Positions 21,697 through 60,604 of a stretch of 64,000 nucleotides of DNA are shown piece after piece (within the stretch, counting starts at the first letter, position 1; the number at the start of each line of letters is the position of its first letter). The notes beneath the pieces are model-generated. The model ran no database searches and had not been told where the DNA came from. It saw only the letters and a list, made by a program, of their open reading frames with translations. This stretch comes from Octopus vulgaris. Its lineage: Eukaryota. The DNA lies in assembly GCA_951406725.2 (NCBI GenBank), contig OX597826.1, forward strand, positions 59,148,001 through 59,212,000, written 5' to 3'. The position numbers and the translations under genes are program-made.

Positions 21697-21730
<34 letters not shown>

Positions 21731-21732
<2 letters not shown>

Positions 21733-22234
21733 CAATAATAATTCTCTAAATGAGATATAGACAGTGACTGCTCCGTAATATAAGGGGTATTAGCCAACCG
21801 AATATGGCTAGGGACAGGGCAGGGTGGTGGGGGTGTCACTGTTGCATTTAGCCCCAGGCGAACATCAACGTCACCAGATAGGCCTGACGCCATCACGACG
21901 TCCTTTATCTTGCAAAGGGAGATCACTCACCAAGAAGCCGATACCACACACGGACCTAGGTTTCAAGGTGTGTTGCCTATTATCAACGTGTGGTAGGCAT
22001 CGCTTCTCGATGAACGACCAACTTTGCAAGATACATATAAGGATTTTCTAGTAAATACATTTACTGATTTCGAAAATCCGTTCGACAGCAATAATAATTC
22101 TCTAAATGAGTTATAGACAGTGACTGCTCCGGTCAGGCCTATCTGGTGACGTTGATGTTCGCCTGGGGCTAAATGCAACAGTGACACCCCCACCACCCTG
22201 CCCTGTCCCTAGCCTTATTCGGTTGGCTAATACC

Positions 22235-22240
<6 letters not shown>
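21731..22240 (-). mobile_element. Retrozyme-like non-autonomous element in (TA)n: 356-nt monomer, 45-nt tandem partial repeat and 109-nt inverted segment
   Basis: 21731-21775 is repeated at 22087-22131 (1 mismatch); 22132-22240 is the reverse complement of 21780-21888 (1 mismatch); (TA)n on both flanks; contains an HHR; second family member at 37071-37381. Confidence 0.85.
21947..21992 (-). ncRNA. Type I hammerhead ribozyme with U3:A8 core
   Basis: Minus strand: CACACG-TTGATAA-TAGGCAACACACCTT-GAAA-CCTAGG-TC-CGTGTG. 6-bp stem I, AGG/CCT stem II, palindromic stem III, GUC triplet (predicted cut between 21953 and 21952). Confidence 0.8.
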
Positions 22241-22302
<62 letters not shown>

Positions 22303-34923: not shown

Positions 34924-35172
34924 AAATTACTGCCGTTGTTTGTCAACAACAACAATCGGCGGTTTATTTTTCGTTTGTCACTGTTATTTATGACAACGTT
35001 CGCGCGTTTGTACTGGGTTTAGCTTTAAAGTTTTAGGGTTAGGATTTTAGGGTTAGAGTTAAGGTTTTAGGGTTAGGGTTAAGGTTTTAGGGTTAGGGTT
35101 GTCATAAATAACGGTGACAAACGAAATATTCACCGCCGGAAGTTCTTGTTGACAAACAACAGCAGTAATTTT
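34924..35172. mobile_element. Fold-back element core: ~75-bp inverted arms around degenerate telomere-like (TTAGGG)n
   Basis: AAAATTACTGCCGTTGTTTGTCAACAA...TTCGTTTGTCACTGTTATTTATGACAAC versus GTTGTCATAAATAACGGTGACAAACGAA...TTGTTGACAAACAACAGCAGTAATTTT; TTAGGG variants at ~35030-35100. Confidence 0.8.
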
Positions 35173-37070: not shown

Positions 37071-37072
<2 letters not shown>

Positions 37073-37381
37073 CAATAATAATTCTCTAAAAGGAATATAG
37101 ACAGTAACTGCTCGACAACATAAGGGACTAAAGCCATTTGAATATGGCTAGGGACAGGGCAGGGTGGTGGGGGTGTTACTGTTGCATTTAGCCCCAGGCG
37201 AACATCGACGTCACCAGAAAGGCTCGACACCGTCACGGTGCCCTAAGGTTTAGGGCACCGTGACGGTGTCGAGCCTTTCTGGTGACGTCGATGTTCGCCT
37301 GGGGCTAAATGCAACAGTAACACCCCCACCACCCTGCCCTGTCCCTAGCCATATTCAAATGGCTTTAGTCCCTTATGTTGT
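37071..37381 (-). mobile_element. Second member of the 21731 retrozyme-like family, 5'-truncated before the HHR, with a perfect palindrome of 132-bp arms
   Basis: Same terminus AGCAATAATAATTCTCTAAA next to (TA)n; 37115-37246 is the reverse complement of 37250-37381 with a GGT spacer. Confidence 0.9.
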
Positions 37382-44024: not shown

Positions 44025-44670
44025 CTGCTCTAGGAACACGGCCCGAAATTTCTGGGTGGGGGAGCCAGTCGATTAGATCGACCTCAGTACGCAACGGGTA
44101 CTTCGAAAGGATGAAAGGCAAAGTCGACCTCGGCGGAATTTTAACTTAGAACGTAATGACAGACAAAATACCTATTTATTTACTATCTACAAGGGGCTAA
44201 ACACAGAGGGGGCAAACAAGGACAGACAAACGGATTAAGTCGATTACATCGACCTCAGTACGTACGCGAAATAATGAAAGGCAAAGTCTAGGAGCAAGGC
44301 CCAAAATTTCTGGATGGGGCAGCCAGTCGATTAGATCGACCTCAGTACGCAACTGGTACTTCGAAAGGATCAAAAGGCAAAGTCGACCTCGGCGGAATTT
44401 TAACTTAGAACGTAATGACTGACGAAATACCTATTTCTTTACTACCCAGAAAGGGCTAAACACAGAGGGGGCAAACAAGGACAGACAAACGGATTAAGTC
44501 GATTACATCGAACCCAGTACGTACCCGAAATGATGAAAAGCAAAGTCGACCTCGGCGGAATTTGAACTGAGAACTTAGCGCAGAGGAAATACCTATTTCT
44601 TTACTACCCAGAAAGGACTAAACACAGAGAGGACAAACAAGGACAGATAAGTGGATTAAGTCAATTACGC
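44025..44670 (-). mobile_element. Concatemer of headless SINE family B units
   Basis: GCAAAGTCGACCTCGGCGGAATTT...AAATACCTATTT.TTTACTA...AAACAAGGACAGA occurs three times, with a local ~260-bp duplication. Confidence 0.88.
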
Positions 44671-60413: not shown

Positions 60414-60604
60414 GGTCCCGGGTTGATTCGGGGTTAACCACAGTAAATAAGGTACTCAATACATAGCAGAGTAAAATTAATTTATTATATAGAAGGAGCT
60501 TCTACAGGACTAGAACTGTTTCATTCAAGAGAAATCTTCAGGAAGCTCCTGAAGATTTCTCTTGAATGAAACAGTTCTAGTCCTGTAGAAGCTCCTTCTA
60601 TATA

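What the first reader, a model, noticed from the sequence alone, without database searches (positions are those of the whole stretch)
21886..21902. Strand-specific covariation between two family members indicates selection on minus-strand RNA structure
Seen: copy 1 (21886-21902) minus RNA is GACGUCG-UGA-UGGCGUC; copy 2 (37226-37242) minus RNA is GGCACCG-UGA-CGGUGUC. There are five substitutions in 17 nt, yet all 7 pairs are kept: one double swap G-C to A-U and three changes to or from G-U wobbles. The wobbles work only on the minus strand, which is the HHR strand. Both copies also keep a four-G-tract motif GGGACAGGGCAGGGTGGTGGGGG on the opposite strand. Inference: the non-ribozyme part of the monomer is a functional structured RNA.
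Basis: seen in the sequence. Interest (0 to 1): 0.7.

Follow-up and report, generated by a model that had tools for sequence, protein, structure and literature searches.

The report
Conserved RNA hairpin in a retrozyme
This short hairpin is one stem of a small, protein-free jumping element of a known kind that carries a predicted self-cutting RNA; its base pairs are kept across the element's families, which likely reflects selection on the RNA's fold, while the neighbouring four-G motif is not conserved.

Summary
Both sites lie in insertions of a ~355-nt non-LTR retrozyme (type I hammerhead, tandem plus inverted arms in TA repeats; 3,308 hammerhead-pattern hits genome-wide), a family this scan has reported before on other DNA. 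Across 162 insertions (33 clusters) the stem is 6 bp with a 5-nt loop; the seventh pair is not kept. In 27 clusters distant from both window copies, 33 of 41 changed cells still pair, against a median of 32% (maximum 69%) for 43 decoy helices. The G·U intermediate forms a 176-monomer subfamily; the A·C alternative has 7 scattered copies. Limits: no single pair is significant under a tree-aware null (best E 1.3); the strand bias is significant only for the whole element (22:7, p=0.008), not for the hairpin (5:1) or non-ribozyme helices (13:5). The G-tract occurs in 10 of 33 clusters, so it is probably not essential. New lead: a long-range 8-bp helix with two separate double swaps encloses one of the two fixed 3' ends, a candidate reverse-transcriptase start element. 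No RNA evidence was obtained.

The parts
21886..21902 (-). The finding's hairpin, family A copy: 6-bp stem (21902-21897 with 21886-21891), 5-nt loop; a seventh G.U pair is optional
21732..22087 (-). Full 356-nt retrozyme monomer, family A; 3' (long) end abuts (TA)n
22088..22131 (-). Last ~44 nt (tail) of the preceding tandem monomer
22132..22242 (+). Inverted, 5'-truncated arm ending at the short 3' end, about 45 nt before the long end
21940..22001 (-). Type I hammerhead: core 21986-21980 in the U3-A8 form, 3-bp helix II over a U.U, short palindromic helix III; predicted cut between 21953 and 21952
   Evidence: (HH9 model, E 0.047, 19 bits, below the gathering score of 52); core variant described in PMC3088659 and PMC4209133
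21906..22033 (-). Helix P3 (22033-22025 with 21906-21914) closing the hammerhead domain; double swaps between families
22042..22078 (-). P1/P2 hairpin at the monomer's 5' side; G-C/C-G, A-U/U-A and U-A/C-G swaps
21857..21875 (-). P6 hairpin; middle pair U.G, C-G or A-U by family
21761..21842 (-). Long-range 8-bp helix P7 (21842-21835 with 21761-21768) closing a loop that holds the C/A-rich tract, hairpin P8 and the short 3' end (about 21776-21778)
21791..21810 (-). P8 hairpin, nearly invariant in sequence (so little covariation evidence)
21811..21833 (+). Four-G-tract motif (C-rich on the RNA strand); present in 97 of 162 insertions but 10 of 33 clusters
21700..21731 (.). (TA)n target, left flank of copy 1
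22238..22299 (.). (TA)n target, right flank of copy 1
37071..37246 (-). Copy 2, family B: 5'-truncated arm with the long end, no hammerhead
37226..37242 (-). The hairpin in copy 2
37250..37381 (+). Copy 2 inverted arm with the short end; carries a mirror copy of the hairpin at 37254-37270
37151..37173 (+). G-tract motif of copy 2

Best explanation
The hairpin is one conserved stem of a ~355-nt non-coding repeat with a type I hammerhead motif (a non-LTR retrozyme), and its pairing is likely kept by selection on the folded RNA of the hammerhead strand during rounds of copying. Shown: monomer anatomy, tandem plus inverted insertions in TA repeats, two fixed 3' ends about 45 nt apart, pairing kept across families. 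Inferred: arrays are transcribed on the hammerhead strand, cut (probably as dimers, through the palindromic helix III) into monomers that may circularise, and a Penelope-like reverse transcriptase/endonuclease acting in trans writes them into TA repeats from two start points. Only variants that keep the fold found new subfamilies, so stems drift through G.U intermediates, while inserted copies decay without regard to pairing. The 6-bp hairpin directly follows the helix that closes the hammerhead domain, and most likely serves as a locally stable spacer that keeps the ribozyme domain and the 3' module (P6, P7, P8) folding separately; its loop sequence varies, which argues against a sequence-specific site.
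For: Out-of-sample test: in 27 clusters more than 15% from both window copies the six pairs are 95% paired and 33 of 41 changed cells still pair; 43 decoy helices chosen by the same rule keep a median 32%, maximum 69%. On 30 representatives 90.9% of cells pair vs 80.8% shuffled (0 of 500) and 23-54% slid. Three pair types at pairs 2 and 4, and C-G/A-U/U-A at pair 6. Genome-wide, G4.U14 176 monomers, nearly all one subfamily among the 100 listed, vs A4.C14 7 monomers on mixed backgrounds. Whole-element strand bias in 8 non-overlapping nearest cluster pairs: 22 G.U vs 7 A.C changes, p=0.008. Consensus fold -46.7 (covariation term 7.4) on the hammerhead strand vs -31.0 (2.0) on the other; hairpin pairing probability >=0.7 in 12 of 16 multi-copy clusters vs 5 of 16 on the other strand. 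P7: G-C form 142 monomers, half-changed forms 8 and 6, and a second swap at the next pair in family C. Hammerhead position 3-8 is U-A 68, C-G 53, U.G 40, C.A 1; the helix III centre is self-complementary (Watson-Crick) in 143 of 162 insertions and a U.G wobble in 9. Architecture: 120 of 213 hit clusters have both orientations, 117 of them with 3' ends outward; long and short ends meet TA repeats 79 and 80 times, as described for Penelope-like elements (10.1101/2021.04.23.441226 passages; PMC11167929 parts 1-2).
Against: No single column pair is significant in a tree-aware G-test (best E 1.3-2.2 of 62,835 pairs; effective number of sequences 31). Shared variants of non-ribozyme helices are not significantly more often pair-keeping than private ones (32:23 vs 21:24, p=0.31; P6 was misaligned in that count, which adds false mismatches). 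Independent-pair tests on single hairpin pairs have only 4, 4 and 1 pairs and cannot reach significance. Hairpin-only strand bias 5:1 and non-ribozyme 13:5 are not significant. Pair 6 is U.U in 12 insertions and pair 1 A.C in 6. P7 has predicted probability below 0.3 in 5 of 12 full-length representatives folded linear. The Rfam hammerhead hit is below threshold. No autonomous partner with homologous ends was found.
Confidence: 0.72

Rival explanations
1. Neutral inheritance: an old palindrome is carried along, and transitions in a few master lineages keep pairs by chance; apparent covariation is shared ancestry.
For: All five differences are transitions; few independent lineages; no pair significant under the tree-aware null; shared vs private test not significant.
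Against: Decoy helices selected by the same rule lose pairing (median 32% of changed cells kept vs 80%); transversion swaps at pair 6 and in P1 and P3; divergence in the first alignment reaches tree length 2.9; many helices show the pattern together (19 of 47 pairs with double changes).
Confidence: 0.13
2. Strand-biased mutation in the RNA cycle (A-to-I editing, which is abundant in cephalopods by my recall, or a reverse-transcriptase error bias) makes G.U pairs on the transcribed strand without selection on them.
For: Variants shared within young clusters are A/G 43 vs C/T 16 on the hammerhead strand, private ones 56 vs 76 (p=0.00015 at 6% clustering, 0.003 at 4%).
Against: The excess vanishes at 10% clustering (73:58 vs 98:101, p=0.26) and between families (A/G 89, C/T 79); no neighbour preference at shared A/G sites; direction was not determined; it cannot give the C/U-side wobbles (pairs 5, 7) or Watson-Crick double swaps.
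Confidence: 0.08
3. The constraint acts on single-stranded DNA (the cDNA or a G-quadruplex/hairpin on the opposite strand) or on a DNA promoter element, not on the RNA.
Against: The G-tract motif is absent from 23 of 33 clusters, which lack an 8-nt stretch there; wobbles favour the hammerhead strand (22:7); the other strand folds worse in 13 of 16 clusters.
Confidence: 0.07

Closest known systems
Metazoan non-LTR retrozymes (Cervera and de la Pena 2020, PMC7229834, parts 2-4 of 6 read; mussel repeats of 350-390 bp; axolotl HHR_Amex2)
   Same: Non-coding tandem monomers of 170-400 nt, one type I hammerhead each, GC below 50%, highly self-paired predicted fold, U.U at the base of helix II as in HHR_Amex2, short palindromic helix III.
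   Different: Circular RNA and self-cleavage were shown there and are untested here. In the parts read, non-ribozyme structure rests on energy prediction; here it has comparative support. Core variants (U3-A8, U3.G8, U4C) are common here. Insertions are two-armed in TA repeats.
Animal retrozymes as non-autonomous Penelope-like elements (Li, Clavereau, Pollet 2026, 10.64898/2026.07.22.740005, parts 1-3 of 5 read)
   Same: Dispersed monomers, dimers and multimers with type I hammerheads in a genome that also holds intact RT plus GIY-YIG elements.
   Different: There 24 of 57 Xenopus families matched known elements (21 of the 22 were PLEs, at their pLTRs); here no pLTR homology was found in 50 GIY-YIG loci examined.
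Penelope-like element insertion and tail (Frangieh et al. 2024, PMC11167929, parts 1-2 of 4 read; Craig et al. 2021, passages)
   Same: Tandem plus 5'-inverted arms, AT-rich or (TA)n targets, two fixed 3' ends separated by a tail; in the anole element reverse transcription starts at two sites around an AC-rich stem loop.
   Different: Tail about 45 nt rather than 30-40; no ORF; canonical-size rather than minimal hammerhead; start sites here are inferred from genomic ends only.

Membership tests
Metazoan non-LTR retrozyme | Tandem non-coding monomers of about 150-450 bp | tested here: met
   356-360-bp units in arrays at many loci; the long open frames listed for the window are mostly simple-repeat text and none overlaps either copy
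Metazoan non-LTR retrozyme | One type I hammerhead per monomer | tested here: met
   Helices I-III and core with covariation; Rfam HH9 match weak, E 0.047; non-canonical core letters have published precedent
Metazoan non-LTR retrozyme | No LTR organisation | tested here: met
   Insertions are tandem and inverted arms ending in TA repeats; PBS and PPT were not searched separately
Metazoan non-LTR retrozyme | Self-cleavage in vitro | not testable with these tools
   needs transcription assay
Metazoan non-LTR retrozyme | Expressed as linear and circular monomer RNA | not testable with these tools
   only assembled contigs of runs not on record as RNA were available
Non-autonomous Penelope-like element | Tandem/inverted insertions, optional 3' tail, microsatellite targets | tested here: met
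   117 of 120 two-orientation clusters have 3' ends outward; 79 long and 80 short ends on TA repeats
Non-autonomous Penelope-like element | Homology to the pLTR of an autonomous element | tested here: inconclusive
   50 GIY-YIG loci searched with the repeat's profile: 3 significant hits, one inspected and found to be a separate insertion in a TA repeat, two not inspected; 150 of 6,136 candidates were scored and 30 fetched plus 20 wider stretches
Evolutionarily conserved structured RNA (R-scape criterion) | Individually significant covarying pairs under a phylogenetic null | tested here: not met
   own R-scape-like test, 122 insertions, best E 1.3; low power
Evolutionarily conserved structured RNA (R-scape criterion) | Helix-level retention of pairing beyond controls | tested here: met
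Conserved functional G-quadruplex | Four G-tracts kept across the family | tested here: not met
   10 of 33 clusters, all in one branch

The most novel reading that the evidence does not exclude
The non-ribozyme half of the monomer (this hairpin, P6, P8 and above all the long-range helix P7) is a structure-defined recognition and initiation element for a Penelope-type, telomerase-related reverse transcriptase: P7 closes a ring that presents the internal start site, and the second start lies about 30 nt past it, which would explain the fixed ~45-nt tail. The retrozyme would then hijack its enzyme by shape rather than by sequence homology to a pLTR, much as a telomerase RNA fences its template with a helix (comparison recalled, not tested).
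Probability: 0.25. Interest if true: 0.68.

Novelty: new member of a known kind. Interest (0 to 1): 0.36.

Why it matters
The element class is known, and this family has been noted repeatedly in this scan. What this finding adds is comparative support that the half of a retrozyme outside the ribozyme is under structural constraint, where the papers read rely on energy predictions. It gives a short list of helices with natural compensatory variants that can be put straight into the published in vitro Penelope assay to ask how a non-coding RNA recruits the enzyme and why reverse transcription starts at two points.

Tried and rejected
Rfam scan of the whole window: the 150 listed of 374 hits were nearly all microRNA models on simple repeats. 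Per-pair tree-aware covariation: nothing significant. Independent-pair tests on single pairs: too few pairs. CpG decay as the source of the double swap: the A.C form that one-sided decay gives is 7 scattered monomers vs 176 G.U, and the distant families carry A-U at that pair, so rejected as the main cause. G-quadruplex as a conserved part: rejected. Longer units of 1.4 and 1.6 kb were local duplications of flanking DNA, not Penelope remnants. ORFs next to 37 copies: 7 scanned, one LINE-type RT, no PLE. Sequencing runs: no RNA holder listed as such; contigs of 8 runs laid show presence and head-to-tail joints, which tandem DNA gives as well, so no evidence either way. 5' truncation points show no peak at the predicted cut site in coarse 20-nt bins. 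Rows dropped before counting: 7 of 129 and 6 of 168 as chimeric or with foreign ends; L170 left out of and L083 added to alignment A1. The sample is biased to contig C1 and to the patterns used. Literature searches: 'retrozyme' with 'covariation' listed 7 papers, seen as listings only, none by title on non-ribozyme covariation in animal retrozymes; 'retrozyme, hammerhead, octopus' listed 2. Supplements were not read (those of the bioRxiv preprints are closed) and may list cephalopod retrozymes or alignments.

Full report
Observation. The G-tract is in both. On their own these facts are weak: all five changes are transitions, each hairpin folds no better than 8-10% of shuffles, and copy 1 is predicted to form six pairs.

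What the sequence is. Copy 1 is a 356-nt monomer (21732-22087), the tail of the preceding monomer and an inverted truncated arm, between (TA)n tracts; copy 2 is two truncated arms without a ribozyme. A type I hammerhead lies at 22001-21940 on the minus strand (Rfam HH9, E 0.047, below threshold). The genome (2.8 Gb; cephalopod-like by my inference and by earlier notes) has 2,359 exact matches to the G-tract 27-mer and 3,308 to a loose hammerhead pattern, with controls of 0. I fetched copies, kept one per insertion (168, then 162 after dropping 6) and found 33 clusters at 6% distance in several families. Of 213 hit clusters 120 have both orientations, 117 with 3' ends outward, and the ends fall at two points about 45 nt apart (79 and 80 junctions to TA repeats). 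This matches non-LTR retrozymes (PMC7229834, parts 2-4; 10.64898/2026.07.22.740005, parts 1-3) with Penelope-type insertion marks (10.1101/2021.04.23.441226 passages; PMC11167929 parts 1-2). Position 3-8 of the core is U-A 68, C-G 53, U.G 40, C.A 1, and the centre of helix III is Watson-Crick self-complementary in 143 of 162; the U3-A8 core and palindromic helix III have precedent (PMC3088659 passages; PMC4209133 passages).

The hairpin in depth. Over 162 insertions the six outer pairs give 867 Watson-Crick, 78 G.U, 12 A.C and 15 other cells; per cluster 178, 11, 5 and 4. Pairs 2 and 4 occur as A-U, G.U and G-C, pair 6 as C-G, A-U, U-A and (12 insertions) U.U; the seventh position is G.G in 37, and the five-letter loop varies. 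So the conserved unit is 6 bp plus 5 nt. On 30 representatives, 90.9% of cells pair against 80.8% shuffled and 23-54% slid (the tool warns that relatedness can beat the shuffle). Genome-wide the half-way form that pairs on the hammerhead strand (G4.U14) has 176 monomers and the form that pairs only on the other strand (A4.C14) 7 (the two patterns differ slightly in the 3' spacer); this is few events amplified, not 176 independent ones.

Results against. A G-test with a tree-aware null on 122 insertions found no significant pair (best E 1.3-2.2) and no hairpin pair among the top 45. Shared variants of non-ribozyme helices were not significantly more pair-keeping than private ones (p=0.31, with P6 misaligned). 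In eight non-overlapping nearest cluster pairs G.U outnumbers A.C 22 to 7 over all helices (p=0.008), but 13 to 5 outside the ribozyme (p=0.096) and 5 to 1 in the hairpin (p=0.22). The evidence is therefore helix-level and cumulative, not pair-level.

The rest of the non-ribozyme RNA. The consensus fold is -46.7 on the hammerhead strand vs -31.0 on the other, covariation terms 7.4 vs 2.0; the tool's fold has 19 of 47 pairs with double changes. P1/P2, P3 and P6 show swaps between families. A long-range helix that the consensus fold missed (many rows lack the tail) joins 21842-21835 to 21761-21768: one A-U is G-C in family A (142 monomers; half-changed forms 8 and 6) and the next A-U is G-C in family C (7 insertions). 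It closes a loop holding the C/A-rich tract, hairpin P8 and the short 3' end. Folding supports it at 0.7 or more in 6 of 12 full-length representatives and below 0.3 in 5 (linear folds). The G-tract is the reverse of that C-rich tract and exists in 97 of 162 insertions but only 10 of 33 clusters; the other families lack 8 nt there, so a quadruplex is not a conserved requirement.

Mechanism. Shown: anatomy, copy structure, retention of pairing. Inferred: transcription of the hammerhead strand, cleavage (likely dimeric), possible circularisation, and copying by a Penelope-like RT/endonuclease from two start points; selection during these cycles keeps the fold. The hairpin's variable loop and position directly after P3 suggest a spacer that insulates domains (inference). 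Intact 781-aa RT plus GIY-YIG frames exist in the genome, but their flanks show no homology to this repeat in the 50 loci examined, so no partner is assigned. An excess of A/G among young shared variants (43:16 vs 56:76 private) could reflect editing or copying bias, but fades at deeper divergence and has no neighbour preference. No RNA evidence was obtained.

Verdict. A real, conserved stem in a new member of a known element class, already noted elsewhere in this scan (my reading was recorded before these look-ups). The most testable new lead is helix P7 around the internal start site. Interest 0.36.

Noticed in passing
window 21842-21835 with 21761-21768 (minus): Long-range 8-bp helix with two separate Watson-Crick double swaps, enclosing the short 3' end; the same 5' strand can also pair with the extreme 3' end near 21733 (96% paired in distant clusters, only 7 changed cells), a possible switch.
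   Followed up: partly
clusters of 4 or more insertions, whole monomer: Variants shared within young clusters are mostly A/G on the hammerhead strand (43 vs 16 C/T); private ones are not (56 vs 76). Unexplained; weak at 10% clustering.
   Followed up: partly
L260, L262, L264, L269: A further family whose helix III is 2 nt shorter and palindromic in three of the four representatives shown.
   Followed up: no
G000:C1:161876436-161884445 and C1:31009335-31013632: Two-armed arrays of 10 to over 20 monomers at 99-100% identity: family B (copy 2's family) is very young although its core carries U4C.
   Followed up: partly
L325-L336: Young Penelope-like family with an intact 781-aa RT plus GIY-YIG frame in many copies; its downstream region holds repeated CCAAT-like and CRE-like words (motif names recalled).
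   Followed up: no
L271:2535-6996 and L204:2948-5183: Retrozyme copies caught in 1.4-kb and 1.6-kb local tandem duplications of flanking DNA; the 1.4-kb unit includes what reads like a LINE fragment (by eye, not scanned).
   Followed up: yes
window 60506-60584: Perfect 79-bp inverted repeat.
   Followed up: no
window 44029-44668: Tandem 259/162-bp copies of a dispersed-repeat-like unit.
   Followed up: no
window 35030-35100: Short interstitial TTAGGG-like repeats.
   Followed up: no
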